Source of the DNA: a virus
Lineage: Duplodnaviria > Caudoviricetes
Virus record (IMG/VR): IMGVR_UViG_3300028832_000114
Span: 1 to 64,000 of that record
DNA length: 64,000 nt
Reading direction: 5' to 3' (one strand)
Shown: piece after piece, positions 20,589-59,427 of the stretch
Layout: every line of letters starts with the position of its first letter
How positions within the stretch are numbered: the stretch's first letter is position 1
Made by a program: the position numbers and the translations under genes
Notes under the pieces: generated by a model
Seen by the model: only the letters and a program-made list of their open reading frames with translations
Told to the model about the DNA's origin: nothing
The model's database searches: none

Positions 20589-20695
20589 ATGTAAAAACCC
20601 TCAAGGCGAAACTCGTATCTTGAGGTTGGACTTACACATATATTATATGCTGCCATGCGGCCGCCGGTTAATCATTTGACGAACCGCGGTTACCG

Positions 20696-20899
20696 CTAAA
20701 TCTTTATAGTGTTTAACCTTGTAATCCCATTCGCTTTTAACTGTCTTTTAGTTAAAGCAGCTGCAAGTCTTTTCATATTGGTTATTTTTTTAAATTTTCT
20801 AAACCAATATGAAGCAAGAAAATCTCTTCCTTCTACCACGTAATCGCGGTATTTCAGGAATGCCTCCTGTTCTTGCTTTAAAAGTGTTTGTTTTTCCAT
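20696..20899 (-). CDS. Small basic hypothetical protein
   Basis: ORF track; likely start MEKQ. Confidence 0.45.
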   Translation of the reverse strand: MEKQTLLKQEQEAFLKYRDYVVEGRDFLASYWFRKFKKITNMKRLAAALTKRQLKANGITRLNTIKI

Positions 20900-20938
20900 A
20901 AGTCTCACTTTCTTTGCATATAGCAATAAATTTCAAAA

Positions 20939-21014
20939 TGGTGGAGAGCAGGGGGCTCGAACCCCTGACCTCCTCGGTGCAAACGAGGTGCTCTCCCAGC
21001 TGAGCTAGCTCCCC
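20939..21014 (-). tRNA. tRNA-Ala(TGC)
   Basis: Cloverleaf, G3:U70. Confidence 0.95.
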
Positions 21015-21022
21015 ATTTATAT

Positions 21023-21099
21023 TGGTGGCTCTACTAGGACTTGAACCTAGAACCTATCGGGTATGAACCGATCGCTCTAGCCCATTGAGCTATAGAGCC
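21023..21099 (-). tRNA. tRNA-Met(CAT), elongator (Ile2 not excluded)
   Basis: Canonical cloverleaf, loop TTCATAC. Confidence 0.9.
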
Positions 21100-21180
21100 A
21101 TAAAAAACATACGCCTTTTATTTAATTTTCCAAAGAATATTAAATTTTAACGGTCTTCCGAAGATTCCGAGGGCACTATT

Positions 21181-21570
21181 TTAATTAGGCATAGCCGCCT
21201 TTTTAGTAATTTCAATTTTAAAGATATTGCCAAAGTGTTTAAAAGTAATAAATTTACCACTATTAACAGTGCAATCTACATTATTATCTTTTAACTTATT
21301 AACAATCATATCAACAATAGTATCTTTTGTTGCATCTCTAAATGCTTTTTTACCATCATTATCTAATAATTTAGTAGTAGTTTTAAAATCAACTTCATAA
21401 ATTTTATTATCTATAAGAACTAAATTATAAATGCCACTACCTGTTAATGAATATTTATGTTTATAATTTTCTTTAAATAGTTCTTGTAAAAAATCACTAT
21501 CAAAAGCCCACTCATATTCAGTTAAACAATTATTCTTTTCAAAAAATTTAAACTTTGACATATCCATCAC
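21181..21570 (-). CDS. Hypothetical protein
   Basis: ORF track. Confidence 0.6.
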   Translation of the reverse strand: MMDMSKFKFFEKNNCLTEYEWAFDSDFLQELFKENYKHKYSLTGSGIYNLVLIDNKIYEVDFKTTTKLLDNDGKKAFRDATKDTIVDMIVNKLKDNNVDCTVNSGKFITFKHFGNIFKIEITKKAAMPN

Positions 21571-21854
21571 TTCCTTATATAAATATTATATAATATTTTT
21601 ATAAAAAAGTAAAATATATATAAAAAATGGCGGTTCATTGAGTAATCCTATGTCTTAGGTCAAGTAGAGTTTCTCCAAAGATTACATCTCGTTACCAAAA
21701 TTGCACTTTCGTTTTAAAATCTTGATATGCGGTTACCCTGCATATGACTTGATTGCCACTTAGTACACACTTCAAACTCAATAAACATCGGTCTAGAAGT
21801 TTTCCTTAACAATAATTTGCTATTAACTAGAATACCGTGCCATTTATTACTTAT

Positions 21855-21928
21855 TGGAGCGGATAAGGGGAATTGAACCCCTACAAACAGCTTGGAAGGC
21901 TGTAATTCTACCATTAAACTACATCCGC
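21855..21928 (-). tRNA. tRNA-Gly(TCC)
   Basis: Canonical cloverleaf. Confidence 0.95.
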
Positions 21929-21931
21929 ATA

Positions 21932-22007
21932 TGGTGCCGACTGTAGGAATTGAACCCACAACCTACTGATTACAAATCAGTTGCTCTACCGATTGAGCTA
22001 AGTCGGC
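21932..22007 (-). tRNA. tRNA-Thr(TGT)
   Basis: Canonical cloverleaf. Confidence 0.95.
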
Positions 22008-22635
22008 AAATCGTGGATTCTTTCTTTATAAAGGAAGAAGAATCCGTAAGAAACCTTATAATATTGCAATATATATTACTGTTCGGTACAGTAATAACCA
22101 ACAGTAGCCAATCATAGGCAAGTACGTCCTTCTATTTTTTGTTTTACCTATAAAGGTCGCCGAAGCTAGGCTGGGTCTGTTATCTCCCGTCTACGTATAC
22201 GTACAATACTCCGCTCCTTTAACACTAGGTTAATGAGCAATGTAGAGCCACGCTCTCTACTCGTGCCTTTTCTCCGATAAAACTCGGACTCGGTCAGCCT
22301 TATAAGTCTATATATAAAATATAGCGAACCCGATGTCGTATTATGTTCGAATTTTCCTAATTTATATTGCGGTATTCAGTCCTCGTAACTCGTTTCTGGT
22401 CCCGCACAAGCCCCATAAAATATATCCCTCATCCCGAGTCGCCCGTATCTTGATATATTCTATATAGTTTTTACTATTCCTTCAGTTAATGGATAAGCAA
22501 TAGTTAAGCAACCAACTATCTCTTTATACCATAGCGGCAGTGAGGTTTCTTACGCCCAAATCTCACTAAACGGTGTGGTCTATCTGCCAGTAAAACTATA
22601 AACTTGGCACGCGTGACACAGCCCGCGTATTAATA

Positions 22636-22854
22636 TTATTCTTCATCACTATCTTCATTTTCAATAGTTTTTTTAACTTTAAATTTTACTCCTGTAAAAT
22701 CGTTTTCATCAAGAATAATATCGCATTTATCATACGCTGCTTCAACTTTTGCAACAGCGTTTTGCTCATTTTCAGCTTCTACTTCAACTCTTTTTTTAAG
22801 AGTTTCAATAACCGTTACATAATATGTATTTTCTTTTGAATTCATATTTCTCAC
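22636..22854 (-). CDS. DpnD/PcfM-like small protein
   Basis: VTVIETL..RVEVEA....A...V...Y....IILD..DF pattern. Confidence 0.6.
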   Translation of the reverse strand: MRNMNSKENTYYVTVIETLKKRVEVEAENEQNAVAKVEAAYDKCDIILDENDFTGVKFKVKKTIENEDSDEE

Positions 22855-23472
22855 TTCCTTTTTATATATTAATTATATAATATTTTTTAAAAATAATCAA
22901 TATATAAATTTTACTTCCATAATATTCTTCAAAAGTAGATAGACAATAGTAACAAAAAATGTCCTTTTTTTAGAATTATTTCAGCGGCGGCCGCCGATCC
23001 ATCAAATGTAAAATCTAAATTCTACAAATGACAGGCCAACTGCCGCCGCATATACAATTTAGGAAACCTCCTCACGTTCTGTTTTACAAATTACTTTACT
23101 GCATAAAGCAAATTATTTTTCTCAAAGAGCGACCTTGATACTTATTCACTCGCTTATCGGAGCAACTCGTTCTGCAGTGGAGTCTAACCTTTAGCAAGAG
23201 AAGATACTTAAATCTCCTTAGGTAATTTAACCGTAATGTATATTTTGGCAAGTTTCTTAAATAAGGGACTTAGGTTAAGATTTTACGAAACTTACAAATA
23301 TTATCTCTAGCCCCAACCAATATTGATATTGTTAATAATACTTAAAAAATAATTCAATAGTAAGTAAACCTATAAACTCTTTAGGAGCGTATCGCTTCCT
23401 CTTACTAAATCATTATTTTTCTTTTTCTTATTAACAAATATATTATACTATAAAATTTTTTAAAATACAATT

Positions 23473-23793
23473 TTATAAACCTAACGCCCTTAATAAATCA
23501 TTAACATTGTTTTTTTCATCTTCTGTTGGTTCAACAATAGGTTTAGATGTTGTTGTTTCAACATCTTCAAATTCTATTTTATTTGCGGCAATACCTGGTA
23601 CTGCATTGTCAGCACCCTGTTCAACATTTTCTTTAGCCGCAGTTAAAGTAACTTTAATTTGAATAGTTTCTCCATTTTCTAAGATAGGAATTCTTATTTC
23701 TTTTCCATCATTATATAAAAATGAACCTTCAAAATTACTTAATATTTTCTTCTGTATTTCCGCTTTCGCTATCTGACCCTTCGCCATCTTCAA
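23473..23793 (-). CDS. Hypothetical phage protein
   Basis: ORF track. Confidence 0.65.
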   Translation of the reverse strand: MKMAKGQIAKAEIQKKILSNFEGSFLYNDGKEIRIPILENGETIQIKVTLTAAKENVEQGADNAVPGIAANKIEFEDVETTTSKPIVEPTEDEKNNVNDLLRALGL

Positions 23794-24607
23794 AATCTCC
23801 TCTCACAATTCTTAAATCTGTTTTGCCTAATGATTGAGCTAATGCAGCAGTGTGATAACACATTTTACATATGTCACCTTTCATACATTTTCTACCACAA
23901 TATACTCTTTTTATTCCAAACCTAGGAACTAAACAAGTACTATCTAAAGAATCTTTTAATCCAATAATAATTTCTTTTAGATCTCCCATCCATTTACCAT
24001 CTATTGCATATATTTCATAATATATTTTTTGTTTTTTCCCATCTCCAAAAAATTCAAAAACATCAATATAATCTTCATACAATTCAACATCTTCTGGGCG
24101 GATTCAAAATTTACATATATCATCAAGTTTTTCATATTGTGATTGAGCTACATTTGGAAACGCTCTAACTTGAACATTTTTAGAATGTGCTATTTCTGCA
24201 ACTTTATCAACTTCAAAACCTAATTGTTCTGTAATAAAAACATCTGTAACCCCATAATCTAAATATTCATATAACATATCTCAATTATTAATATATACAT
24301 TAAAATATATTTTACATTCAGGATACATTTTTTTAAGTTCTGCCGCATATGTTGTATCTCATTTAGACAGACGAATTTTTACATTGTATTCAGGATTATT
24401 TTTTTGAAAATCAAAACATATAAATACTTTTTTTTCATTAATTGCATCATCAAGATTGTTAATACATAAATTAATCCTTTGGTCTTTATGTAATTCGCAA
24501 TATTCTTTTAAATCATCTAATTTAGTTTTTAAAACATCAATATTTATTTCATTAACTTCTTCAAAATAATTTAAATCTTTTCCCTGAAAATCAATACAAT
24601 ATTTCAT
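23735..24607 (-). CDS. Hypothetical protein (possibly U32-peptidase-like), joined through three TGA
   Basis: Track fragments 24359-24607 and 23735-24082 are one frame; C-terminal Cys cluster. Confidence 0.7.
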
Positions 24608-24652
24608 AAAACCTCCTAAAAATAAAAAGTGTTGAACTCAACACTTTATTAA

Positions 24653-25060
24653 CTATGCTAAGCGATATGCTTTTCTAGTTTTTCCATCGTCAGATTTAAC
24701 ATCTGTTTTTTCAACTTCACCAAGAGTTACTAATTGAGTTAAACGAGCGATAACTTTTGCTTTTGAAATTTCTTCATCATTAATAGCTGATACAATATTT
24801 TCAACTGTTTGAAAATCATTAGTTAATACTGATTTAACTGTTTCTCTTAATTCGTCTCCTTCAGCTCTCTTCTCAGCAGCTCTTTCTTTTGCTTTTTCAG
24901 CTCTCTTATCAAGAGTGTCAATTTGATTTTGAACGAAATCGATTAATTCTTGTGATTCATCTTTCTCAGTTAAAATACTTAAAATTTCATTGTAGTAATC
25001 TTTCTTAGTTAATTTTTTGTCTTCCATAATCTTATTCTCCTTTTCTCTTTCGTTTTTCAT
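24653..25060 (-). CDS. Small winged-helix-like protein; paralog of 3479-3814
   Basis: Shared motifs. Confidence 0.6.
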   Translation of the reverse strand: MKNEREKENKIMEDKKLTKKDYYNEILSILTEKDESQELIDFVQNQIDTLDKRAEKAKERAAEKRAEGDELRETVKSVLTNDFQTVENIVSAINDEEISKAKVIARLTQLVTLGEVEKTDVKSDDGKTRKAYRLA

Positions 25061-25922
25061 AATAATATTATATTACAAATTTTTTTGAAAATCAACTGTA
25101 CCCATTATCCTATCCAGTTCATATGACTTTGGATTGCATCTAATAAATCATGCTCATCTGCAACAGTTAATTCATCTATTCTATAGTTATTTGCAACTAA
25201 CATTCTTTCTAATATATCTAAAGCACTATCATTTTCATTTGCACAATAGATGTAGTATCCAATATGCGGCATTAATTCCTCTTTAATGCTAACACTATTA
25301 CGAATATGAAATCTAACACCATCAACAAATGGATTTCCCCCATCTTTACTAGGATCTAATGGATTTTCAAATCTAAACATATTCATCTCCTCCTTTTTCT
25401 ACTTCTTCAATTTTTGGACTTGAAATTATTATTTCATCTACATTATGAAAACGCTTTTTAAGTTCTTTGCTTAAATGAACCCCATATATATCTTCTTTAA
25501 GCTCACCCAACCAATCTATTTCATCAATATAGCCATTTTTTAATTTAACAAAATCTCCTGTTTTCATAACTACTCCTCATCATTATTTAATATATTAAAT
25601 ATTTCACATAATTCTTCTTGAGTTGCTGGTTCACCATCAATAGTATCCATATCAAAAATTATCATATCTAATTCTTTTTGTGCTAATTTCTGTTTTTCTA
25701 TTAAACGATTAATAAAATCTTTTTGTATTGCAATAACTTTATTTAATCTTTTTATTTCGTCTTTATATTCGTTAAATTGGTCTACTACCCAATCTGTTAA
25801 ATCGTGCATCTTATCACCTTTTCTTTCTTTACATTTATATTTTATAATATTTTTTAAAAATAATCAATAAGAACGTGCGGCCGCCGATCTATCAAATACA
25901 TAATCTGGGTTATTTCTGGATC

Positions 25923-25951
25923 TTGACAATTATAAAAAAATATTATATAAT
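25923..25951 (+). promoter_or_regulatory. Consensus sigma70 promoter at the strand-switch point
   Basis: TTGACA-N17-TATAAT; divergent promoter near 25840-25868. Confidence 0.75.
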
Positions 25952-26073
25952 CACGCGTGTGCACGCGCGCGTATATTAAAATAAGGTTGGACATCGCTGC
26001 CAGCCCCACACGATTTTATTGATAATTTTTTAAAAATATTATATAATTATTATATATGAGATAGAAAAGAAAG

Positions 26074-26442
26074 GTGATGAAGATGAATATGTCTCAAAGC
26101 AGGTTCTTTTGTACAGAATGTGGAAATGAAGGAATTCCTATTATGCGTCCTGCAGGACAACAAAGAGAACCTGGTCATTTAAAAAAATTGTATTGTATCC
26201 ATTGTAAAAAAGAAGTTAATCACGCAGAGGTTCGTGAAATAGGTGGATATACTGAAGAAGATTTTAGAAAAGAATTTGAACTCGGTCGATTTAAAGATGG
26301 TCAACGAGTTGAAGGTAAGAATCTTTTACTATGTTCTAATGTAACCTGTCCTTTTAATATAAAAGGTAAATGTTGGAATAGTAATAATTCAAATGATTGT
26401 GGTTATAAGCCGGTTTATGAGGAGGGTGATAAAAATGAGTAA
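26074..26442 (+). CDS. Zn-ribbon protein (L33-like first domain)
   Basis: CTECG...KKLYCIHCKK..NH. Confidence 0.65.
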   Translation: MMKMNMSQSRFFCTECGNEGIPIMRPAGQQREPGHLKKLYCIHCKKEVNHAEVREIGGYTEEDFRKEFELGRFKDGQRVEGKNLLLCSNVTCPFNIKGKCWNSNNSNDCGYKPVYEEGDKNE

Positions 26443-26890
26443 AATGTATGTAATGATAGGATTGCCCGGATGTGGTAAAAGCACATACATAGCAACACAT
26501 AAACAGCCTGACGATATAATTGTATCAAGAGATGTAATTCGTTATAGTATGCTAAAAGATGGCGATGCATATTTCTCAAAAGAAAAAGCAGTGTATAATG
26601 AATTCATAAGACAAATAAATGCGGCAATCGAAACTGGAAAAACTGTATGGGTAGACCAAACATCTTTAAACCGTGGATCCCGCAGTAAATTATTTAGTCA
26701 TATAGCTACTAAACCAGACACTGTAGTTGGTATTTATATGAATATTCCTCTTGATACAGTATTAGCCCGCAATTCTTTAAGGACTGGACGAGCTCTAGTT
26801 CCTGAAGATGCTATTTTAAATATGTGTTTTCATTTTGAAGAACCGCAAGAGTGTGAAGGATTTGATTATATAGTGGAGGTGAAACATTAA
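26435..26890 (+). CDS. Polynucleotide kinase-like P-loop kinase (AAA_33)
   Basis: GLPGCGKST, SRDVIR, RN..R lid. Confidence 0.85.
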   Translation: MSKMYVMIGLPGCGKSTYIATHKQPDDIIVSRDVIRYSMLKDGDAYFSKEKAVYNEFIRQINAAIETGKTVWVDQTSLNRGSRSKLFSHIATKPDTVVGIYMNIPLDTVLARNSLRTGRALVPEDAILNMCFHFEEPQECEGFDYIVEVKH

Positions 26891-27124
26891 TGAAATCAAT
26901 ATGTAGATATTTAAAATTAAGAAAATTAAAATCTGGAGTTGCAAAAGAAAGCTGGGAAAAATTAGAAGGACAAGAATTTTTAGTTGTGTTTTTTGATGGA
27001 ACAACAGAATGGTGCATTGATAAAGATGAATTATATACTTGTTTATCAAAAGACCATATAAAACAAATTCATTATATTTTTGATATGACAGATAGAATTG
27101 CAGTTGAACGAAGCATAATGATTA

Positions 27125-27706
27125 ATGCTGAGGACATTTAATATGGAAAAGAAAATTTGGTTCACAAGTGATACTCACTTTGGACATAATAAAGAATTTT
27201 TATATGAACCTCGCGGCTTTGCATCAATAGAACAACATGATTGGGAAATTATCCGTAATTGGAATTCTGTAATAGGACCAGATGATGAAGTATACCATCT
27301 AGGCGATATGATGCTGGTAGATAATGAGCACGGAATGCATTGTATTCGTATGCTTAATGGTCATATTCACCTTATTCTAGGTAACCATGATACTGAAAGC
27401 AGACATGTATGTTATGAAGAGTGTCCTAATATATATGAAATTGTTTTTGCAACTCAATTAAAGTATAAGAAAAATTATTTCTTTTTATGCCACTATCCAG
27501 TGATAACCGCAAACTATGATGACCAAAAACCATGGGCTATGCATTTAATTAATCTATTTGGTCATACACATCAAAAAGAAAAATTTTATAATGATAATCC
27601 ATATATGTATAATGTAGGACTAGATGCACATAATAATTACCCTGTTGAAATTAATGAAATTATTGCCGATATCAAGGCTAAAAAAGAAACACTTGATAGA
27701 CAATAA
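27125..27706 (+). CDS. Calcineurin-like metallophosphoesterase
   Basis: SDTHFGH, HLGD, GNHD, GHTH. Confidence 0.9.
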   Translation: MLRTFNMEKKIWFTSDTHFGHNKEFLYEPRGFASIEQHDWEIIRNWNSVIGPDDEVYHLGDMMLVDNEHGMHCIRMLNGHIHLILGNHDTESRHVCYEECPNIYEIVFATQLKYKKNYFFLCHYPVITANYDDQKPWAMHLINLFGHTHQKEKFYNDNPYMYNVGLDAHNNYPVEINEIIADIKAKKETLDRQ

Positions 27707-27744
27707 TTTTTTTCTTATAATAACAATAGAATAGGAGAATAAAA

Positions 27745-27984
27745 ATGTTTAAAATATTTAAAACTTTAATCTTAATTATTTGATTAATTGATATATTAAA
27801 TATTGATTTTATTATTAATAATATTCATATTGCACAATTTTTAGATACTACATTACCAATAAACTTTTGATTTTGGTTATTGTTTTGATTATTAGTGCCA
27901 ACATCTCAATTAGTTACAATAAATAAAGATTATGATTATATTACTGATAAATATTTAAGAATTAAAAGAAATAGAAAGGATTAA
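27745..27984 (+). CDS. Small membrane protein with three TGA(Trp)
   Basis: AGGAG SD, two hydrophobic segments, TAA stop. Confidence 0.6.
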
Positions 27985-27988
27985 TATT

Positions 27989-28450
27989 ATGAATTGGAAA
28001 ATTAAAGATGCTTGGTTTGCTAAAGAAACTGGTATATCTAGTGTAACAATTAGTACACGATTAGGTTTATTTAATGGCAGTAGTTTAGTTCATCCTGATG
28101 ATAAAGATATTGCTTCTGAGTTCGAAGGTTGTCGTTATGCTGAAGGTAGAGCCGCTATCGAATATTTAAAAGAAGAAAAAAGAATTGCAATAATTAAATT
28201 AGAAACATTAAAAGATTTATATAAAAATTATGAGCAAATGAAATATTTTAGTGAGAATAAAAAAGAAATTAAAACGTTAAAAGCAAAAATAAGAGATTGT
28301 GAAAATAAATTAAATGAAATTACAAAAGGAATTGAAGGAATTAAAAAACATCTTGCCTATTCAATGGAAAATTACAGAAAAGATAGAGAAGAATTTTATA
28401 ATACAGTAAATAAAAATAGAGAAAAAAAGAAATTAGTTCCTGAGGACTAA
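27989..28450 (+). CDS. Hypothetical coiled-coil protein
   Basis: ORF track. Confidence 0.65.
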   Translation: MNWKIKDAWFAKETGISSVTISTRLGLFNGSSLVHPDDKDIASEFEGCRYAEGRAAIEYLKEEKRIAIIKLETLKDLYKNYEQMKYFSENKKEIKTLKAKIRDCENKLNEITKGIEGIKKHLAYSMENYRKDREEFYNTVNKNREKKKLVPED

Positions 28451-28476
28451 TTTTTTTATTAAGGAGTTGATAATAT

Positions 28477-29022
28477 ATGAGAACAATTATTCGTTTATAC
28501 ACTGATGGAGCTTGCAATAACAATCCTGGTATCGGAGGTTGAAGTTGTATAAGATATGATGCGGAAACTAATACTATATATGATGCTTATACAGGCGGAG
28601 AAGAGACCTATATGGATGGACACCTCGTGCAAAAGAAAGAAACAACAAACAATCGTATGGAGTTAAAAGGTCTAATACAAGCATTAGAATTAGCCACTAC
28701 AAAATATCAAGATTGTGATGTATTAATATATAGCGACAGTGCTTATGTTGTTAATATGTTTAATACTTGAATATACAGTTGAGCTAAAAATAATTGGATA
28801 AACAGCTCAAAAGGAGAAGTTAAAAACTTAGATTTAGTTAAAAAAATATATGAATATACAAAAGTAGATTTCCCTAACTATGGTGTATATAAGATCGCGG
28901 GTCATAACAATGAAATTGGAAATGAACTTGCGGATGCCTACGCTGTTGCGGAAAGAAGCGGAGATGCAACAAAATTAGCCAAAATTTTAAAAGAAAATAA
29001 TATTACTCTTGCCATAGAGTAA
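28477..29022 (+). CDS. rnhA: Ribonuclease HI (three internal TGA=Trp; missed by ORF track)
   Basis: YTDGAC..NPG.GGW, TTNNRMEL, SDSAYV, AGH....GNELAD. Confidence 0.93.
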
Positions 29023-29086
29023 TTTTTTGATTTTAGAGGAAAATTTTGATATAATTATATTAGATGATTTTTAGAAAGGAGAAAAT

Positions 29087-33316: not shown

Positions 33317-33378
33317 CAACATTTTTTATTATTCTTGAAAATACTGAAAAAATATTATATAATATATTTATAAGGGAA

Positions 33379-35925: not shown

Positions 35926-35938
35926 TTAGGAGAGAGAA

Positions 35939-45579: not shown

Positions 45580-45591
45580 GAGGAATAATTA

Positions 45592-45882: not shown

Positions 45883-45890
45883 GCGGCCGC

Positions 45891-46358: not shown

Positions 46359-46406
46359 TCTATTTGATTTTTATTTAATTTTTTAGTATAATATAAATAT
46401 ATAGGT

Positions 46407-50378: not shown

Positions 50379-50386
50379 GAGAATAT

Positions 50387-50740: not shown

Positions 50741-50814
50741 TCATATTAAGCAAAAATTAAAATTGTCATAGAGGTTAAAATCCTTGAAATAATTTAAATA
50801 CTAAGGAGGAGACT

Positions 50815-53070
50815 ATGAAAGTCATTAAACGTGATGGTCGCTTGGTTGTTTTTGACCCAGCGAAAATCGAGAGAGCTATTCTCGCAGCATTCGAGGATGT
50901 AGATGGTGAAATATCTGACTACGCTAAAGATAAAGCTGAAAATATAGCAAGTTATATTGAAGGATATTATTTAGATGTTGATGAAACACCTAATATTGAA
51001 GATATCCAAGACCTAGTAGAAAAAGGTCTAATGGCAACAAAAAGAAAAGATGTTGCAAAAGCCTATATTTTATATAGGGAAGAAAGAAATAAAATTAGAA
51101 ATTCCAATAGCCAATTAATGAAGGCTATTAAGGAAAAGATTGAAGCATCAGATGTTCAAAATCAAAATGCTAATATTGATGAATATTCTTTCGGCGGCCG
51201 TATGGGTGAAGCCCGCAGTGAGTTAATGAAAGATTATGCATTAAATTATTTAGTATCTGATATGGCAAGAGAAAATCATTTAAATAATGAAATTTATATT
51301 CATGATTTAGATGCTTATGCTGTTGGTATGCATAACTGTTTAACCATTCCTTTTGATAAACTATTAGCAGAAGGATTTAACACAAGACAAACAGATGTTA
51401 GACCAGCTCGTTCAATTAACACAGCATTTCAATTAGTTGCAGTTTTATTTCAATTACAATCACTTCAACAATTTGGAGGAGTTAGCGCAAGTCATTTAGA
51501 TTGAACTATGGTTCCATATGTTCGTATGTCATTTAGAAAACATTGGATTAATGGTGTAAAATATATTGAAGATAAAGTTAATGAAATTCCTGTTCAATAT
51601 TTACCAGAAGAAACATCTATTGAAGATGAAGATTATCAAATGTTTCCAAGAGCATATCAATATGCAATGGATATGACAACAAAAGAACTTATGCAAGCTG
51701 TTCAAGGTATGTATCATAATCTAAATACACTACAATCTAGAAGTGGAAATCAATTACCTTTTACTTCTATTAACTATGGTACTTGTACTTTACCTGAAGG
51801 TAGAATGGTTACAAAAGCATTATTAGAAGGCTCTATTGAAGGTGTAGGAAAAGTTAGAAAAACTCCTATATTCCCATGCGGTATATTCCAATGTATGAAA
51901 GGTGTTAATCGTAAACCTGGAGACCCTAACTATGATTTATTTAAGTTAGCATTAAAATCAACAGCTCAAAGATTATATCCTAATTATGTTAATATAGATT
52001 GGTCTACTAACGCGGGATATGATATTAACGATCCTAAAACATATGTTTCAACTATGGGTTGTAGAACTTATAATGGTGCGGATATTAATGCTGAACCTGG
52101 CACAAATCCTCAAACTAAGGACGGCCGCGGCAATATATGTCCAGTTACTATTGTAATGCCAACATTAGCTATGGAAGCTAAAGAAGAAGCTGAAAGATTT
52201 AGAGAGGGAGCAGATGTATATTTTGATAAAATTGAATTATTTATGACGCTATTAGATAAAAAAATCCATGAAGCTAGAGATATGTTAGTTGAAAGATATA
52301 AATGGATTATTAGTCAAAATCCTGAATCTGCAAAATTTATGTATGAAAATGGATTAATGCTTGGCTATGATGGTAAGACAGTTGAAAGTGCTATGAAACA
52401 TGGAACTCTTGTAATAGGTCAAATTGGTATGGCTGAAACATTACAAATTTTAATTGGTTGCGACCATACAGAACCTAGAGGAATGGAATTAGCAAAAAGA
52501 ATTGAACAATTATTTAAAGATAGATGTGCTGAATTTAAAAAAGAATTACACTTAAATATTGGTGTTTATTATACACCTGCTGAAAATATGTGTTATACAT
52601 CTATGAAAAAATTTAGAAAAAAATATGGAATTATTCCTAATGTAAGTGATAGAGATTATTTCACAAATAGTATTCATGTTCCTGTATGGAAAGAAATGAG
52701 TCCATTTGAAAAAATTGATATTGAAAGTCAATTAACTGGATATAGTAATGCAGGATGTATTACTTATGTAGAATTAGAGGGCGGAGTTAAAAATAATTTA
52801 GACGCTCTTGAAACTATTGTTAACTATGCTATGGATAAAGATATTCCATATTTCGCAATAAATGTTCCAAATGATATATGTTTAGATTGTGGCTATACTG
52901 ATGAATTCAATGATAAATGTCCAATGTGCGGAAGCACGCATATTCAACAACTTAGACGTGTTACTGGATATTTAACAGGAGATTATAAAACAGCATTTAA
53001 TAAAGGTAAACAACAAGAAACTGAACAAAGATATAAACATAGTAAAAAATTGGAGAACTGGCATGATTAG
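50815..53070 (+). CDS. nrdD: Anaerobic ribonucleoside-triphosphate reductase (TGA=Trp at 51502-51504)
   Basis: ATP cone VIKRDG, MGCRT, RRVTGYL. Confidence 0.95.
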
Positions 53071-53560
53071 AATTGCTGGGTTAAATGGAAATGATTTTGT
53101 CAATGGAGAAGGTGTAAGCGTTAGCTTATTCCTTCAAGGTTGTCATTTTCATTGTAAAGGATGTCATAATCCTGAAACTTGGAATCCTGAAGGCGGAATT
53201 GAAGTTGATGAAGGAGATTTAATTCAACAAATTTTAACATTAATAAATGCTAATAATATTACTCGTAATCTTAGTATCTTAGGTGGAGAACCACTTGATA
53301 CCGAACAAAAAAGATATTTTTTAAGAGAATTAATAATACGAGTAAGATATTATTATCCAGAAATTAAAATTGTGCTTTGGACAGGATATAAATATAATGA
53401 TATAAAAGATAAAGAAGATTTTAAATATATATTAGAAAATATAGATTATTTGATTGAAGGCCCTTTTATATTAGAGGAACGCGACATAACGCTTAAATGG
53501 CGCGGCAGCCGCAATCAAAATATAAGAAATATGAAAACAGGAGAAAACATCAATGATTAA
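53063..53560 (+). CDS. nrdG: NrdD activating radical-SAM enzyme
   Basis: CHFHCKGC, GGEPL, RGSRNQ. Confidence 0.95.
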   Translation: MIRIAGLNGNDFVNGEGVSVSLFLQGCHFHCKGCHNPETWNPEGGIEVDEGDLIQQILTLINANNITRNLSILGGEPLDTEQKRYFLRELIIRVRYYYPEIKIVLWTGYKYNDIKDKEDFKYILENIDYLIEGPFILEERDITLKWRGSRNQNIRNMKTGENIND

Positions 53561-53718
53561 TTTTTTAAAAATATTTTTTCCAGCTCTTATGGTAACTGGA
53601 GCAGTTGGTAGCTGCGTTGTAAATCTTGTTACAGATAAATCTAATTGGCCTGTAACATTGCAATGGTTTGGAGCTGCATTGCTATATACAGCATTATTAT
53701 TTAGAAACAAATAAAAGG

Positions 53719-53765
53719 TAAGGAGGTAAGTTATAATTTATTAAAATAGCTTACCTCCTTTTTCT
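53719..53765 (+). terminator. Intrinsic terminator
   Basis: AAGGAGGTAAG...CTTACCTCCTT then T run. Confidence 0.65.
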
Positions 53766-53784
53766 TATTTTTCAGGGGGTAATC

Positions 53785-54717
53785 ATGGAAAGAAAAGAAA
53801 TATGTGATAAGATTTATTACATGACTAAAAAAAGAAAATCTTTTAAAACCGTTTGTCAAGAATTAAATTTAAAAGATTATGAAGTTATAGGTTTAGTAAC
53901 TATAATGGCACAAGAGGGATATAATATTGATTTTGTAGATGGAGAGCTTATTATTAGAAAAGTTCCTAAACAAAATCAAGATGTTTATGAAATTCCATAT
54001 AATTTAGAACATTTAAAATTATTATTAATTAGTGATACTCATTTATGTTCTAAATATGATAGATTAGATATTTTAAAATATTTATATTCAAAAGCAGAAG
54101 ATAAAGGTATTCAACATATATTACACTCAGGTGATTTTACTGATGGTCGTTCAAATAGACCAGAACATGTATATGAATTAAAAGAGCATTCTTATGAAGG
54201 ACAAGTTGATTATTGTGTTGATAGATATCCTCAATTTAATGGAAAAACATATATAATTTCAGGTAATCATGATGACTGGTGGTATAAATCTGCAGGAAGT
54301 GAAATTGTAAAAACAATAGCTAAACAAAGAGAAGATATGGTTTATTTAGGTCCTGATGTTGCAGATTTAAAAATTGGTAAATTAAAAATTAGATTATTTC
54401 ATGGAATGGGCGGCGGCGCATATGCTAAATCTTATAAATTACAAAAATATTTAGATAGCATTCCAACCGCAGAAAGACCTGATATTTTACAAACAGGACA
54501 TACTCATCAATCATTCTATATGAAACAAGATGGTACACATTGTTTTCAAACCAGCTGTTTAGAAGATCAAACGCCATATTGTAGAAGTATGGGTATGGGA
54601 AATGATAAATCATGTTGATGAGTTGATGTAGACTTTGATGATAAGGGAAATATTTATAGTATTAAACCTGAATTAGAAACATTTGGAGACAAGAAAATTT
54701 ATACTAAAAGGAAGTAG
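53785..54717 (+). CDS. Metallophosphoesterase with N-terminal HTH (tandem TGA TGA)
   Basis: SDTH, HSGD, GNHD, GHTH; frame continues CWWVDV to TAG. Confidence 0.85.
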
Positions 54718-54722
54718 TTTTT

Positions 54723-55142
54723 ATGAAAGATGTTACACAATGAATGATAAACAGCTATGGGTTAGATGATAAGGGCTATGATTTTATGGGTTATACTTTT
54801 ACAGATCAAAGACAATTAAGCTTTCATCATCTCATCGTTCCTAAAAAAGATTGCCCTAAATTAAGATTGGGCAATGGATACTTTTTATGAAATGGAGCTA
54901 TTTTAAAACAACTAACCTCACATAATTATTTACACGTAATAGAAAGAATAGATAGAAATACTTTTTTAAAAATTACACAAATATTAATAGCAGAAAATCA
55001 AACAGGAGAAATAAATATAGAATTATTAAAACAAATTAGATTTTTATTAGAACATTTTGAAAAAGAGCATTATGATGAAACTGATAAAAAAGGCAAAATT
55101 TTAATTAAATCGAAATATATAACAGAAAGGATCCCGCTATAA
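54723..55142 (+). CDS. Hypothetical protein, HNH-like (two TGA)
   Basis: FHHLIVP...NGAIL...H..LH pattern. Confidence 0.55.
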
Positions 55143-55424
55143 ATGACAATAGAAGAAAAAATACAAAAACATCAAGAATTATTGAATATCCTACATGAAG
55201 TTTATATTGCAAAAAATCATGATTATGGGGATAGTGTTCATGATACTTATAATAAATATGGAATAGTTTCTTTTTTGGTAAGACTTGAAGATAAATTAAA
55301 TAGAGCTAGAACAATTAGTTCTAAATCTCAAATGGTAGAAGATGAAAAATTGAAAGACACTTTATTAGATATGGCAAACTATGCTATTTTAGCAATTTTA
55401 GAGTTGGAGGATAATAATGGATAA
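55143..55424 (+). CDS. Nucleotide-modification-associated domain protein (DUF1599-like)
   Basis: [26 protein letters not shown]. Confidence 0.8.
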
Positions 55425-56646
55425 AAAAATAAAAGAAGCATTAGAAAAAGAAATTATAAGACAACAACAAAATATTGAATTAATTGCGAGTGAAAATTAT
55501 GTATCTAATGATATATTAAAATTACAAGGAAGTATATTTACAAATAAATATGCAGAAGGATATCCCTCTAAAAGATATTATGGGGGATGTGAAAATGTTG
55601 ATACTGTTGAACAATTAGCTATTGATTATGTATGTAAATTATTTAATGTAAAATATGCAAATGTTCAACCTCATAGTGGTAGCAGTGCTAATATGGCGGT
55701 ATATAGAGCATTATTACAACCTGGTGATACTGTATTAGGCATGAATTTAAGTTCCGGTGGACATTTAACACACGGATATAAATTAAATTTTAGTGGAAAA
55801 GATTATAATATTATTAGTTATGATGTTGATTATAATGGATATATTAATTATGATAATATTGAAGAATTAGCACTACAATATAAACCTAAAATGATTATAG
55901 CAGGCGCTTCCGCATATCCAAGAAAAATAGATTTTGCAAGATTTAAAGATATTGCAGATAAATGTGGTGCATATTTAATGGTTGATATGGCACACATAGC
56001 TGGATTAGTTGCGGCAGGTTTTCATCAAAATCCTTGTGATTATGCAGATGTAGTAACTTCCACTACACATAAAACACTACGTGGACCTCGTGGAGGAATT
56101 ATATTAACAAATAATAGTGAAATTAGTAAAATAATTAATAAAACAATATTCCCAGGTATTCAAGGTGGACCTTTAGAGCATGTAATCGCCGCAAAAGCTC
56201 AGTGTTTTTATGAGGCACTACAATCCGATTTTAAAGAATATCAAAAACAAGTATTAAAAAATATTACAGCAATGGCTGAAGAGTTTCGTTCACTTGGGGT
56301 TTCTTTAGTAAGTGATGGCACTGATAATCATTTAATTTTAGTTGATGTATTTCACTCTTTTGGTTTAACAGGGGCGGAAGCAGAAATAATTTTAGATAAA
56401 ATTCATATTACAGTTAATAAAAACACTATTCCAGGAGAAACATTAAAAGCAACTGAGGCAAGTGGTATTAGAATTGGTAGTCCTGCTATGACAACTAAAG
56501 GACTTAAAGAAGAAGATTTTAAAACAATAGCAGATATTATTTATATGGCTTTATCTTTAAGAACTGATAAAAATGCATTAGAAAGACAAAAAGAAAGGGT
56601 ATTAGAAATTACAAATAAAATTTATTATGAGCAAACTAATTTTTAG
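55417..56646 (+). CDS. glyA: Serine hydroxymethyltransferase
   Basis: [24 protein letters not shown]. Confidence 0.97.
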
Positions 56647-57202
56647 ATATAGTGCTATGAATAGTGGCAAAACAACCAATTTGTTACAAGTAGCACATAA
56701 TTATGAAGAACGCGGGTTTATGGTTAAAATAGCTAAACCTGAAATAGATACAAAGGCGGATGACCGTGTTTCTAGCCGCATTGGACTAGAACGAAAGGTA
56801 GACTACCTAATACCGCCGCAAGGAGAAATATCAATAGATCTAAGAACTAATGTGCTATTGATTGACGAAGCACAATTTCTAAATAAAGAACAAATAGATC
56901 AATTATATGAAATATCAAAATTATATAATATTTTAATTATTTGCTATGGTTTAAGAACGGATTTCCGCATGCAAGGATTTCCTGGGGCTACTCGTCTACT
57001 AGAAATAGCTGATGAAATTGAAGAATTAAAAACTATTTGCTCTTGTGGCAAAAAGGCTACATTTAATCTTCGTCTAATTAATGGTTTTCCAACATTTGAA
57101 GGAGACCAAGTGTCTATTGATAATCAAGAAGAAATAAAATATGATAGTATATGCGGGGATTGTTATTTAAAATTAAAACAAGGAGCTAAAAATGGATTAT
57201 AA
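56627..57202 (+). CDS. tdk: Thymidine kinase
   Basis: [22 protein letters not shown]. Confidence 0.95.
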
Positions 57203-57815
57203 AATTGAAACTAAAATTACTGATTTTGATATTAATTGAAAAAAAATAAAATCAGCATGTATGACTACTATATCAAAAGAAGCTGGAGATAAAGAACCAT
57301 CAAGTGAATGAAAAAGAAAATTATTATTATGTGAGCATAGTCCTATTCGTCGCGGTACTGTAAGTTGGAAGTGAGATGCTATTCCCTATGCAATTTCAAC
57401 TCATTTTGTAAGACATCATGAAGGTGTAGAAAAATGGGTAGGCACTCAAAGAGCTGATAGAACAGAAGTAAAAGATAGAAGTGAAAGAAGCCAAATGAAT
57501 CCAGTCCCTATGGAGATGGAAGCTAATATTCAAGCATTAATTAATATATCATATAAAAGACTTTGTACTTGTGCAGATCCACTTACTAGAAAATATTGGG
57601 AAAATACTTTATTAGCAATTAAGGAATATGATGAAGATATATTCTGGGCTTGTGTTCCTCAATGTATTAGATGTGGAGGATGCCCTGAATATAAAACTTG
57701 TGGATATTATGAACAATTTGCAAAAAATCTAACAATGGAAGAACAAATAGATATTCATAAAAGATATGATAAATATAATGAAGAAAGAGCTAAAAGACTA
57801 ACTTTGAAAAAATAA
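57192..57815 (+). CDS. thyX: Flavin-dependent thymidylate synthase-like protein (three TGA)
   Basis: EHSPIR, HFVRH, RLC motifs once TGA is read as Trp. Confidence 0.75.
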
Positions 57816-57866
57816 AAAAAATATATTATAATATTTATATATAAAATAAGAAAAGAGGTAAAAAAT

Positions 57867-58352
57867 ATGATAAGACCAATTTTAACATATCCTGCGGATA
57901 AAGAAATATTAACACAAAAAAGTGTTGAAGTAACAGAATTTAATGATGAAATAAAAGAAATTATAACCGATTTAATTGATACATTAAAAAATTCAACTGG
58001 TGCAGGCATTTCCGCAATTCAAATTGGAAAACCTTATCGTATTTGTGTTATAAATTGGTGTGATATTCATGTTTTAGTTAACCCAAAAATAACTAGAACA
58101 AGAGGAACTCATTCAATGAGGGAAGGCTGTTTATCAGTTCCTGGATTATTTGTTGATCATGAACGAGCTCAAAAAGTATGGATCACTGCACTAAACGAAA
58201 ATGGTGAAGAATATGAATATGCTGAGGGCGGCAATGGTAGCTATATTGCTCAACATGAATTAGACCATTTTGAAGGTACTTGTTCATTATTCCAAGCATA
58301 TGATGAAATAGAAAAAAATATAGGGGTTGAAAAGAAAAATGAAAATAATTAA
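57867..58352 (+). CDS. def: Peptide deformylase
   Basis: GISAIQIG, EGCLS, QHELDH. Confidence 0.95.
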   Translation: MIRPILTYPADKEILTQKSVEVTEFNDEIKEIITDLIDTLKNSTGAGISAIQIGKPYRICVINWCDIHVLVNPKITRTRGTHSMREGCLSVPGLFVDHERAQKVWITALNENGEEYEYAEGGNGSYIAQHELDHFEGTCSLFQAYDEIEKNIGVEKKNENN

Positions 58353-58842
58353 AAGATTTTTATTAAATAGAAAATTAAAAAAAGAATATAAAAGAAAAAT
58401 ATTAGAACATAAAACAAAATTAATTCAAATTTTTAGAGAATTATTACAATGAAAAGATTGTGATTGGATAACTAAAGACTTGGATGTAATGAATAATTTA
58501 TGGTATAGAATATTAGAACATGATGATAGTCTATATGATAAAATAGAAATGAAAATATTTAAAAATCCTGATGGGAATTATTCTCAAGAAGAATATGACG
58601 CCGCAGTTCAACATCACATAAATAATAACGACCATCATTGGGAGAATAGAGTAGATGACCAAATTTTAACCTTACAAACTAAGCTAGCCTGTGTTGAAAA
58701 TCTACTAGATTGAATGTCTTATAAAACAGCTCCTTATGAAGAATGATTTACATTCATTGAAAATACAAAACTACCAGAAATACAAAAAAACTTCATGAAA
58801 GAATTTATGTGAGTAATAATAAATAATAAAATGGAGGTATAA
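58339..58842 (+). CDS. HD-like protein (DUF5662-like), several TGA
   Basis: EHDDS, HH...NDHHWE, LLDW. Confidence 0.6.
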
Positions 58843-58974
58843 TTATGTTATGGTTTTGGATATTAGTTGGAATAGTAGTAGTATTAACAATAATATTTGT
58901 AATCTGCGCTATTATAACTGGTAAAAGTATGGAAGCATATTACACAGGACTAGATGACGAAGAGAGGTATTTAA

Positions 58975-59427
58975 ATGATATTCCAGAAAAACAAGAAGAA
59001 AAAATTAAAGAAGAAGAATAGCACTGTTGAAATGGGAACTTCTCTTTACGAAGTAAATAAAGGGCTTGTAGAAAAAAATGTTCCTGATTTAACAGATGAA
59101 GAAATGCAAAATAAAAAAACATTAATAATTGATTTTATAAATAATACAAGTAATCAATATTATATGTTATTATGCAATGATAAAAAAGATTATACAATAT
59201 TTAGAAGAGAAACGAATGAAAATAAAGATTTCTTAGACAATCTTGAAACTCCAGACCGCGATAGATTATGGAATGTATTAATTGATGAATGTCTTCCTAA
59301 CCGCGGCCGCACAAAATCAATAGAATTAACTGAAAATCAAGATGCTGTTGAGATATGGATCTCAATTGAGAGCGAAAGTTATTGCTATATGTTTTTTCCA
59401 TATGATGCAGCTATCATTGAATGTTAG
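58975..59427 (+). CDS. Hypothetical phage protein
   Basis: ORF track. Confidence 0.65.
   Translation: MIFQKNKKKKLKKKNSTVEMGTSLYEVNKGLVEKNVPDLTDEEMQNKKTLIIDFINNTSNQYYMLLCNDKKDYTIFRRETNENKDFLDNLETPDRDRLWNVLIDECLPNRGRTKSIELTENQDAVEIWISIESESYCYMFFPYDAAIIEC

What the first reader, a model, noticed from the sequence alone, without database searches (positions are those of the whole stretch)
20657..59310. Strong over-representation of GCGGCCGC and GCGG/CCGC words in an AT-rich genome
Seen: nine GCGGCCGC sites (20657, 22987, 25877, 30209, 41450, 42678, 45883, 49446, 59303). At under about 30% GC a rough independent-base estimate is about 0.01 sites per window. GCGGC/GCCGC and TGCGG recur in both orientations, inside genes and between SD and start codons (before starts at 835, 1556, 39136, 41203, 45891). 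Inference: a HIP1-like dispersed signal for DNA modification/repair, nucleoid or packaging protein binding, or recombination.
Basis: partly seen in the sequence, partly recalled or inferred. Interest (0 to 1): 0.7.

Follow-up and report, generated by a model that had tools for sequence, protein, structure and literature searches.

The report
Selected TGCGG word in rumen phage
This cattle-gut phage and its whole clade choose rare codons so that the short DNA word TGCGG/CCGCA (two abutting copies make a NotI site) is scattered in equal numbers over both strands. What reads the word is unproven; my best guess is the phage's own primase.

Summary
All nine GCGGCCGC sites are at the stated places, against 0.04 expected from shuffles, and a tenth lies at 104149 in the 104-kb phage record.

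The unit is GCGG/CCGC, more exactly BGCGG (TGCGG, GGCGG; never AGCGG). It occurs 392 times against about 190 expected. It is enriched 1.7-2.8-fold after synonymous-codon shuffling, in nearly all reading frames, in both orientations and in non-coding DNA.

NotI and GCGG-N3/4-CCGC pairs exceed even a model that rewards the word and its flanks.

The trait marks one clade of SPbeta-related, stop-codon-recoded gut and rumen phages. Sister clades, SPbeta, Enterococcus phage H1 and the candidate host bins lack it; the host bins carry 7-10 times fewer sites.

I found no C5, N4/N6 or Dam-type methylase, Vsr or DpdA gene. In eight genomes the two orientations reach equal counts despite 1.4-3-fold different chance levels. 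This suggests a quota for each strand.

My best guess (about 35%) is start sites for the phage's DnaG-type primase. Rivals are a Chi-like signal, a duplex-binding protein and a modification or repair drive.

This scan found the same phenomenon before on other phage DNA (e1-1068126, e1-5687591, e1-3696375). I found no published description.

The parts
1..64000 (.). Dispersed GCGG/CCGC words, about 280 in the window and 392 in the 104-kb record. The effective word is BGCGG / CCGCV, best TGCGGC and GGCGGC.
20657..20664 (.). GCGGCCGC. On the minus strand it lies directly before an ATG.
22987..22994 (.). GCGGCCGC, part of GCGGCGGCCGCCG; also a GCGG-N3-CCGC pair (22984-22994).
25877..25884 (.). GCGGCCGC in a minus-strand gene, encoding an Ala run.
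30209..30216 (.). GCGGCCGC in gyrB (K-A-A-A-A-R-K written GCG GCG GCC GCA); also a GCGG-N3-CCGC pair (30206-30216).
41450..41457 (.). GCGGCCGC inside the primase gene (T-G-G-R-T, frame +1).
42678..42685 (.). GCGGCCGC in the RecJ-like gene, followed by TGCCGC (Ala run).
45883..45890 (.). GCGGCCGC directly before the ATG at 45891.
49446..49453 (.). GCGGCCGC in the Pol III alpha gene (N-A-A-A-A-G); also a GCGG-N3-CCGC pair (49443-49453).
59303..59310 (.). GCGGCCGC in the 150-aa ORF 58975-59427 (N-R-G-R-T).
20686..20696 (.). GCGG-N3-CCGC pair. Further pairs: N3 at 30899 and 53502; N4 at 13382, 32052 and 49770.
41203..42303 (+). DnaG-type primase, 366 aa, with an N-terminal Cys/His zinc-binding motif and a Toprim-like EGEKS...AFD segment. 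It is the candidate reader of CCGCA. This role is inferred, not shown.
   Evidence: orthologous in all relatives
39644..41185 (+). DnaB-type replicative helicase, read through one TGA; the primase's partner at the fork.
46407..50378 (+). DnaE-type DNA polymerase III alpha; used as the marker gene for the family tree.
24653..25060 (-). 135-aa protein with a long helix plus a PadR-like winged helix. It is specific to the clade that carries the word. A lead only for a duplex-DNA reader.
23735..24607 (-). 290-aa TIM-barrel protein with four invariant C-terminal cysteines and three TGA=Trp codons. It is adjacent to the winged-helix gene in most relatives and is clade-specific. A lead only.

Best explanation
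Shown: the phage keeps a short DNA word at high density by selection on the DNA itself. The word is TGCGG/CCGCA, widened in this lineage to KGCGGC. It is written mainly with codons that are otherwise rare: 61% of all GCG codons are followed by G, and 60% of CGC codons are preceded by C. Individual sites turn over, but their density is kept up, and each strand carries about one BGCGG per 600 nt. NotI sites are two such words abutting head to head (8 of 10 are KGCGGCCGCM). Inferred, my preferred mechanism: CCGCA is the template start site of the phage's own DnaG-type primase. The 3' A would be the uncopied 'cryptic' base and the primer would begin pppGCGG, by analogy with T7 (5'-(G/T)(G/T)GTC) and SP6 (5'-GCA). 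In a 30%-GC genome such sites would be too sparse by chance, so codon choice is bent to supply Okazaki start sites on whichever strand is the lagging-strand template. Head-to-head pairs 8-12 nt long would give a primer GC-rich at both ends.
For: Selection acts at the DNA level. The word is enriched after synonymous shuffling in five of six frame-by-orientation classes, and by the same fold in the early and late arms. It is also enriched in non-coding, non-tRNA DNA, 18 vs 7.2±2.5. Motif sites are conserved 3-5 times more often than other NCGN 4-mers, yet 60-85% are not positionally conserved at 73-80% nt identity while the numbers stay up. Changes occur at wobble positions. The factor looks phage-linked. 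The trait marks one clade on the Pol III alpha tree and is absent from the sister clade, SPbeta and Enterococcus phage H1. Contigs of the three Bacilli MAGs that bin relatives have 0.4-0.6 sites/kb against 3.75, and TGCGG there is 9/9.8 and 5/13.5 with no skew. There is a quota per strand. In eight genomes TGCGG and CCGCA on the coding strand are nearly equal (84/86, 110/116, 181/145, 177/174, 233/251, 205/190, 98/79, 127/141), although their nulls differ 1.4-3-fold. Fitting this needed unequal bonuses, 1.1 vs 1.75. The word fits the shape of a primase site. The 3' flank of CCGC is A > C,G >> T, and AGCGG/CCGCT is not enriched (0.87x). It ends in GCA, the SP6 primase trinucleotide. T7 uses pentamers, and E. 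coli primers are 10-12 nt and start with a purine (PMC2532735, PMC12839067). The phage encodes a primase with a zinc-binding motif, plus DnaB and Pol III alpha. As a precedent computed here, T7's three major primase pentamers are enriched on both strands and nearly equal in number: 138 vs 95 and 132 vs 101.
Against: There is no biochemical or read-level evidence for priming at the word. The primase is orthologous in relatives that lack the word (36-47% identity), so a specificity change has to be assumed. Same-strand spacing is only Poisson-like: CV 1.07 and 1.04 against a model 1.16 and 1.12, P about 0.16. A need for regular priming predicts more even spacing. Head-to-head pairs are strong only in this sub-lineage and absent in G023 and G009, so the 'double-clamped primer' idea is an after-the-fact rationalisation. 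The T7 enrichment is modest (1.3-1.45x) and not top-ranked. Host assignment rests on metagenomic binning only.
Confidence: 0.35

Rival explanations
1. A Chi-like signal. TGCGG is read on single-stranded DNA by a translocating helicase-nuclease (host AddAB/RexAB or a phage enzyme). It switches DNA-end degradation to recombination and so protects phage DNA ends during recombination-dependent replication.
For: It is a 5-mer differing by one base from B. subtilis Chi (AGCGG; the known Chi sequences are from my own knowledge). Non-TGCGG relatives carry other CG-rich words (TGCGCAA, GGCGCGA, CGCGCGA) that recall Firmicute Chi variety. The per-strand quota fits enzymes entering from either end. Chi-rich phages are documented (PMC12315714).
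Against: AGCGG itself is not enriched, at 0.87x. Documented Chi-rich phages are strongly polar, with sites clustered at one end, and lack their own recombination genes. Here the word is non-polar and uniform, and the phage carries Sak4-like, RecJ-like and RecD-like genes (RuvC only per an earlier scan note). In the candidate host bins TGCGG is neither over-represented nor skewed. AddB was not detected in those bins, which are incomplete. The phage RecD-like helicase is absent from G020 and G023, which have the strongest enrichment.
Confidence: 0.2
2. Binding sites for a phage-encoded duplex-DNA protein (nucleoid organiser, packaging or replication factor). One candidate is the clade-specific winged-helix protein at 24653-25060, perhaps working with the adjacent TIM-barrel/4-Cys protein.
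For: Head-to-head pairs (NotI, N3, N4) exceed a flank-aware independent-site model: 8 vs 2.5, 5 vs 1.2 and 3 vs 0.2. The pseudo-palindrome TGCSGCA is 8-10x enriched in four genomes. The two-gene module is present in every genome of 88% or more estimated completeness that carries the word (9 of them at 90% or more), and absent from all non-carriers of 93% or more. The small protein folds as a PadR-like winged helix.
Against: The gene-trait link is one phylogenetic event, so any clade-specific gene would show it. Pair spacings of 0, 3 and 4 put half-sites on different faces of the helix. Pairs are absent in G023 and G009 despite very strong word enrichment. A symmetric duplex reader does not predict equal counts in the two orientations. 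PadR-type proteins usually bind a few operators (my own knowledge).
Confidence: 0.15
3. A HIP1-like modification or repair drive. The word is the target of a DNA-modifying enzyme of an unrecognised family, and biased mismatch repair or protection of modified sites raises its frequency.
For: The word contains CpG, 27% of all phage CpGs lie in it against 4-8% in controls, and other CpG words decay faster. The TIM-barrel/4-Cys protein of unknown function could be an enzyme.
Against: There is no C5, N4/N6 or D12 methylase, Vsr or TGT/DpdA gene in this record or in five near-complete relatives. GTGG/CCAC is not depleted and the deficits are diffuse. The GCWGC deficit is fully explained as a by-product. 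The word is mostly non-palindromic. The candidate host genomes are not enriched.
Confidence: 0.1
4. A translational or codon-context effect, or a by-product of avoiding other words (restriction sites).
For: The sites sit mostly at codon junctions and use rare codons. GATC, GTAC and ACGT are clearly avoided.
Against: Both complementary words are enriched on the sense strand in nearly all frames, and in non-coding DNA. Restriction-site avoidance varies between close relatives (GATC 0/59 to 50/55), while the word's enrichment is constant. The deficits of other words are too small and too diffuse.
Confidence: 0.05

Closest known systems
Primase recognition sites of phages T7 (5'-(G/T)(G/T)GTC-3') and SP6 (5'-GCA-3') (PMC2532735, PMC12839067)
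   Same: A short word read on single-stranded template, with a 3' base that is not copied and degenerate 5' bases that become primer. It is needed at some density on both strands and is read by a phage-encoded zinc-finger primase. CCGCA ends in GCA. In T7 the three pentamers are mildly enriched and nearly equal in number on both strands.
   Different: No primase assay exists for this phage. The enrichment here is far stronger (2-4x, the top word of the genome) and works against a strong AT bias. I found no published case of genome-wide selection for primase sites.
Chi sites and Chi-rich phages (E. coli LLS class, P. aeruginosa MD8; PMC12315714); B. subtilis Chi AGCGG
   Same: An over-represented short word in a phage, plausibly read strand by strand. 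It differs by one base from B. subtilis Chi.
   Different: It is non-polar and evenly spread, not clustered at one end. AGCGG is excluded. The candidate hosts show no enrichment or skew, and no AddB was detected. The phage has its own recombination genes.
HIP1 (GCGATCGC) of cyanobacteria
   Same: A GC-rich word dispersed through coding and non-coding DNA and maintained against expectation, with its reader still debated.
   Different: HIP1 is a true palindromic octamer of a cellular chromosome and is linked to methyltransferases. Here the unit is an asymmetric 5-mer in a phage, no methylase was found, and the palindrome is a minority composite.
DNA uptake sequences (Haemophilus USS AAGTGCGGT, Neisseria DUS)
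   Same: Equal numbers on both strands, about one per kb, inside genes and between them, sometimes as inverted pairs. From my own knowledge, the USS core is also GCGG.
   Different: Uptake sequences belong to the chromosomes of competent bacteria and spread by biased uptake. This word is phage-specific and nearly absent from the candidate host.
Earlier reports of this scan (e1-1068126, e1-5687591, e1-3696375)
   Same: The same GCGG/TGCGG enrichment, with GCGG-N3-CCGC pairs, in related AT-rich gut and rumen phages; reader unidentified.
   Different: This report adds several things: the exclusion of AGCGG, two explicit selection models for the NotI and pair excess, mapping of the trait to one clade, candidate host bins without the word, elimination of GyrA and RecD-like as readers, equal counts on the two strands in eight genomes, a T7 control, and the primase reading.

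Membership tests
Chi (crossover hotspot instigator) site | Identical to a characterised Chi word (B. subtilis AGCGG, S. aureus GAAGCGG) | tested here: not met
   AGCGG/CCGCT is 0.87x of the codon-shuffle null, while TGCGG is 2.6x and GGCGG 2.9x. AGCGG is never enriched in 12 genomes.
Chi (crossover hotspot instigator) site | Over-represented and strand-skewed in the host chromosome | tested here: not met
   In the candidate host MAG contigs TGCGG is 9/9.8 and 5/13.5, and CCGCA 8/5.7 and 7/13.2. The host link rests on binning only.
Chi (crossover hotspot instigator) site | Host encodes AddAB/RecBCD | tested here: inconclusive
   There is a partial AddA-like ORF in one MAG, only PcrA-like helicases in the other two, and no AddB match. 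The MAGs are incomplete.
Chi-rich phage class (LLS/MD8) | Sites polar (one orientation) and clustered towards one genome end; no phage recombination module | tested here: not met
   The orientations are equal and the fold enrichment is uniform in the early and late arms. Sak4-like, RecJ-like and RecD-like genes are present. The class definition is from PMC12315714.
HIP1-like iterated palindrome | The palindromic octamer is the enriched unit | tested here: not met
   Only 10 of 392 words are in NotI sites. The 4/5-mer is enriched with any non-A 5' flank. The palindrome does show an extra 3-fold excess over the flank-aware model.
HIP1-like iterated palindrome | A cognate DNA methyltransferase and/or a very-short-patch repair enzyme is present | tested here: not met
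   PF00145, PF01555 and PF02086 were searched in this record; PF00145, PF01555 and PF03852 in near-complete relatives. None matched. An unrecognised enzyme family cannot be excluded.
Primase recognition site | The genome encodes a sequence-specific (zinc-binding, DnaG/T7 gp4-type) primase | tested here: met
   The protein matches phrog_47 'DNA primase' at E 6e-40. Cys39/Cys43-His and Cys62/Cys66 motifs and a Toprim-like segment are read directly from the translation.
Primase recognition site | A 3-5-nt template word with a 3' uncopied base, and a purine-initiated primer | tested here: inconclusive
   CCGCA would give pppGCGG. The 3' flank preference is A > C,G >> T. This is compatible, but it is not a test.
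Primase recognition site | Primers start at the word in vitro or in vivo | not testable with these tools
   No raw reads were available; all 24 listed runs (20 of which hold the stretch) are kept as contigs. There is no cultured host.
DNA uptake sequence | Abundant in the chromosome of the (competent) bacterium | tested here: not met
   0.4-0.6 sites/kb in the candidate host contigs against 3.75 in the phage.
CGGN four-base glycine codon system (earlier scan reports) | Reading frames break at in-frame CGG followed by an open +1 frame | tested here: not met
   There are only two candidates, both antisense to the gene arm. xxG|CGG is the one frame not enriched (8 vs 4.5).

The most novel reading that the evidence does not exclude
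TGCGG is the mark of an undescribed phage 'self' system. The clade-specific pair at 23735-25060 (a TIM-barrel enzyme with a four-cysteine motif, plus a PadR-like winged-helix protein) would read or chemically mark the word. The word is ten-fold denser in phage DNA than in host DNA, so the system could tell the two apart during replication, host-DNA breakdown or packaging.
Probability: 0.1. Interest if true: 0.85.

Novelty: new variant of a known kind. Interest (0 to 1): 0.66.

Why it matters
Genome-wide selected words (Chi, uptake sequences, HIP1, KOPS) have each led to a piece of DNA machinery. Here a whole clade of abundant, uncultivated cattle-gut phages pays a clear coding cost: most of its GCG, CGC and CCG codons exist only to spell the word. 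It keeps a 5-mer at equal density on both strands, while its likely hosts almost lack the word. It would also give a way to read primase specificity from sequence alone. In practice, the word and its lineage-specific variants (TGCGC, GCGCGA) are compact signatures for classifying these phages.

Tried and rejected
1. Very-short-patch-type mutational drive. The one-step neighbours of CCGC show only diffuse deficits and GTGG/CCAC is at 1.01. No Vsr gene was found.
2. GCWGC (TseI/BbvI) avoidance as the cause. The deficit is reproduced as a by-product by the flank-aware model.
3. Special placement between the SD and the start codon. Density there equals the genome average.
4. Regular spacing. No significant evenness.
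5. GyrA/GyrB, LigA or the RecD-like helicase as reader. GyrA is present in carriers and non-carriers alike. RecD-like is absent from the strongly enriched G020 and G023, and LigA is sporadic.
6. DpdA/TGT-type guanine modification. No TGT gene.
7. CGGN quadruplet or +1 shift sites, a lead from earlier scan notes. None found here.
8. Fold of the 290-aa clade-specific protein. Only generic TIM-barrel matches, tied at Z about 11; no Pfam or PDB sequence match.
9. PHROG scans of 20 ORFs, 19 of them previously unassigned. These gave only a GIY-YIG homing-endonuclease-like ORF (36533-36865), a weak DenV-like hit and the primase.
10. Read-level evidence. All 24 listed runs (20 of which hold the stretch) are kept as contigs, so ends, nicks and modification cannot be seen.
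11. Literature searches for the word in phages found no description.
12. Primase gene replacement at the base of the clade. Not seen; the primase is orthologous throughout.

Full report
WHAT THE DNA IS. The window is the first 64 kb of a single 104,464-bp virus record, 29.7% GC. CheckV estimates it as 70% complete. It carries 25 tRNA genes, including suppressors with anticodons UCA and CUA. It reads TGA as a sense codon mainly in the late arm. Genes run leftward from about 26 kb and rightward from 26 to 67.6 kb, and the late genes run leftward again from 104 to 67.7 kb.

The replication genes include GyrB/GyrA, an NAD-dependent ligase, a Sak4-like ATPase, DnaB, a DnaG-type primase, RecJ-like and RecD-like proteins and DnaE-type Pol III alpha. 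The yorG-I-J-K-L part matches the order in Bacillus phage SPbeta. The closest cultured relatives of Pol III alpha (39% identity) are SPbeta-like phages and Enterococcus phages. Near-identical DNA is held by 20 runs from 13 studies, mostly labelled bovine gut, gut or rumen metagenomes.

All nine GCGGCCGC sites are at the stated coordinates, against 0.04 expected from dinucleotide shuffles. A tenth lies at 104149. The driver is the tetramer: GCGG 193 and CCGC 199, against 87 and 107 under a maximal-order Markov model. The octamer is not an outlier once its sub-words are given.

With synonymous codons shuffled within each ORF fragment, which keeps protein sequence and codon usage, CCGC (154 vs 53, z 17.6) and GCGG (198 vs 119, z 9.5) are the two most enriched of all 4-mers. 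By contrast GGCC, GCGC, CCGG and CGCG are not enriched, and GATC, GTAC and ACGT are depleted.

Five of the six frame-by-orientation classes are enriched; xxG|CGG is not (8 vs 4.5). The early and late arms show the same fold. Non-coding, non-tRNA DNA has 18 sites against 7.2±2.5. Much of the rare-codon use exists only to spell the word: 113 of 184 GCG codons precede G, 43 of 71 CGC codons follow C, and 30 of 58 CCG codons precede C. In the phage 27% of all CpGs lie in the word, against 4-8% in SPbeta, Enterococcus phage H1 and the candidate host contigs.

THE REAL WORD. The flanks matter. TGCGG is 2.6x and GGCGG 2.9x, but AGCGG is only 0.87x. On the 3' side, GCGGC is 3.0x and GCGGT 1.4x. The best hexamers are GGCGGC (5.3x) and TGCGGC (3.6x).

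I fitted a Gibbs model that keeps the proteins and rewards only the tetramer. It reproduces the counts but predicts 0.9 NotI sites where 8 coding sites are observed. A second model that also fits all eight flank classes predicts 2.5±1.4 NotI sites (P about 0.007). It predicts 1.2 GCGG-N3-CCGC pairs against 5 observed and 0.2 N4 pairs against 3. It does explain CCGCGG, GCGGCGG and the GCWGC deficit.

So NotI sites are head-to-head word pairs (8 of 10 are KGCGGCCGCM) with a real extra excess of about 3-fold. This pair excess is strong in the close relatives (pooled N3 64, N0 29, N4 25, against about 0 for the everted arrangement). It is absent in G023 and G009. It is therefore secondary to the word itself. 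Same-strand spacing is Poisson-like. The SD-to-start spacer is not specially enriched.

WHO HAS IT. All 36 close IMG/VR relatives show the same 1.4-2.7-fold excess, while their GATC avoidance ranges from 0/59 to 50/55. A profile scan added 74 more distant relatives. I fetched eleven whole genomes. At the 5-mer level TGCGG/CCGCA ranks 1-3 of 512 in G000, G003, G009, G018, G020, G021, G023 and G024 (z 12-26), at GC contents of 28-39%. AGCGG is never enriched. TGCSGCA is 8-10x enriched in four of these genomes.

On a Pol III alpha tree rooted on the SPbeta-like phages, the trait maps to one clade (branch support 0.85). The sister clade, L140, Enterococcus phage H1 and the SPbeta-likes lack it. 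A few members inside the clade have lost it or carry another CG word: TGCGCAA in G013, and GGCGCGA/CGCGCGA in G010/G011 of the sister clade.

Within aligned homologous DNA, word sites are conserved 3-5 times more often than other NCGN 4-mers. Yet most sites are not shared at 73-80% identity, while the numbers stay high. The alternative states differ at wobble positions. This is selection for density, with turnover of individual sites.

HOST SIDE. Relatives are binned in three MAGs of about 1.1 Mb and 27-28% GC, labelled Bacilli (two) and Erysipelotrichaceae. Their other contigs carry 0.4-0.6 sites/kb, observed/expected 1.0-1.5. TGCGG there is 9/9.8 and 5/13.5, with no orientation skew. AddA is at best partial and AddB was not found, though the MAGs are incomplete. 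Binning is weak evidence for a host, so these points are conditional.

WHAT IS EXCLUDED.
- No C5, N4/N6 or D12 methylase, Vsr or TGT gene was found in this record or in near-complete relatives, one of which is complete with terminal repeats.
- There is no clean neighbour-word depletion.
- There are no CGGN frame-shift sites, a lead from earlier notes of this scan.
- GyrA occurs in carriers and non-carriers alike.
- The RecD-like helicase is missing from the two most enriched genomes.
- The primase is orthologous throughout.

A KEY REGULARITY. In all eight carrier genomes the observed numbers of TGCGG and CCGCA on the coding strand are nearly equal: 84/86, 110/116, 181/145, 177/174, 233/251, 205/190, 98/79 and 127/141. 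Their codon-shuffle expectations differ 1.4-3-fold. Equal selection per duplex site would keep the chance ratio. Equalised counts instead suggest that each strand has its own required density, which means a reader that works on one strand at a time.

MECHANISM. Inference begins here. A strand-wise, density-dependent, phage-specific reader of a 5-mer is most simply the phage's own primase. The enzyme has the Cys/His zinc-binding motif and a Toprim-like segment of DnaG-type primases. Such primases start at fixed tri- to pentanucleotides with an uncopied 3' base: T7 at GTC within (G/T)(G/T)GTC, SP6 at GCA, E. coli at CTG, and Aquifex at all-G/C triplets (PMC2532735, PMC12839067). CCGCA ends in GCA and would template pppGCGG. 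The flank rule (A > C,G >> T on the 3' side, G preferred on the 5' side) is of the expected kind.

About one BGCGG per 600 nt of each strand is on the scale of Okazaki fragments (this scale is from my own knowledge). As a control, T7's three major pentamers are enriched on both strands and nearly equal in number: 138 vs 95 and 132 vs 101.

Against this reading: there is no assay, spacing is not more even than chance, a specificity shift in an orthologous primase must be assumed, and the pair excess is explained only after the fact. I put this reading at about 35%. The others are a Chi-like signal at 20%, a duplex-binding protein at 15%, a modification or repair drive at 10%, and a translational effect at 5%. 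The rest is for something not considered.

A LEAD FOR THE RIVALS. Few genes are present in at least 7 of 8 carrier genomes and absent from the three larger non-carrier genomes compared. They include an adjacent pair near the divergent early region:
- A 290-aa TIM-barrel protein with four invariant C-terminal cysteines. It has no Pfam or PDB sequence match and only generic TIM-barrel fold matches.
- A 135-aa protein with a long helix and a PadR-like winged helix.

The 290-aa family is in all eleven carrier genomes of 88% or more estimated completeness that were tested (including G009 and G022, both under 90%). It is in none of five non-carriers that are at least 93% complete. But carriers form one clade, so this is a single evolutionary event and only a lead.

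NOVELTY. The same enrichment was reported earlier in this scan on other phage DNA. Two of those genomes appear, from adjacent note ids, to share Pol III alpha words with mine, so they probably belong to the same broad family. I found no published description.

Noticed in passing
window 32739-32760 (GyrA 30978-32750 and ORF 32891-33316): The GyrA C-terminal beta-pinwheel continues in the -1 frame, open from 32744, with no start codon before 32891. Relatives have one continuous 780-800-aa GyrA. This is either an assembly error or a -1 frameshift.
   Followed up: partly
whole record: There is classical restriction-site avoidance of GATC, GTAC and ACGT (z -8 to -10). It varies sharply between close relatives (GATC 0/59 to 50/55), unlike the constant TGCGG enrichment.
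   Followed up: partly
whole record: TACTA/ACTA words are depleted (TACTA 114 vs 174). From my own knowledge, TACTA and AACTA are the preferred sites of the B. subtilis xenogeneic silencer Rok. The depletion could equally follow from GTAC/CTAG avoidance.
   Followed up: no
G010 (L149-L154), G011, G013: Relatives without TGCGG have their own over-represented CG words: GGCGCGA and ACGTATAC (42 vs 1.6) in G010, CGCGCGA in G011 and TGCGCAA in G013. The 'word' trait may be a family feature with changing specificity.
   Followed up: partly
window 36533-36865 (+): A 110-aa ORF is similar to the catalytic domain of GIY-YIG homing endonucleases (phrog_7168, E 2e-22). With TGA read as Trp it joins upstream ORF fragments into a 308-aa gene (35939-36862).
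   Followed up: no
window 11396-22007 (-): There are 25 tRNA genes, including tRNA(UCA) at 18093-18188 and tRNA(CUA) at 16294-16370. ARAGORN also calls a 419-nt tmRNA at 13570-13988. tRNA genes hold 22 of the GCGG/CCGC words, mostly in acceptor stems.
   Followed up: no
window 2528-3382 (-): A full-length sigma-70 family factor (regions 1.2, 2, 3 and 4) is encoded by the phage.
   Followed up: no
SPbeta, L037 and L038: In SPbeta the B. subtilis Chi word AGCGG is strongly polar (12 vs 2 and 21 vs 2 in two 50-kb stretches). This contrasts with the non-polar word of the rumen clade.
   Followed up: no
window 40001-50000: Near-identical DNA occurs in 20 public runs from 13 studies, mostly labelled bovine gut, gut or rumen metagenomes, so the phage lineage is widespread in cattle.
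   Followed up: no
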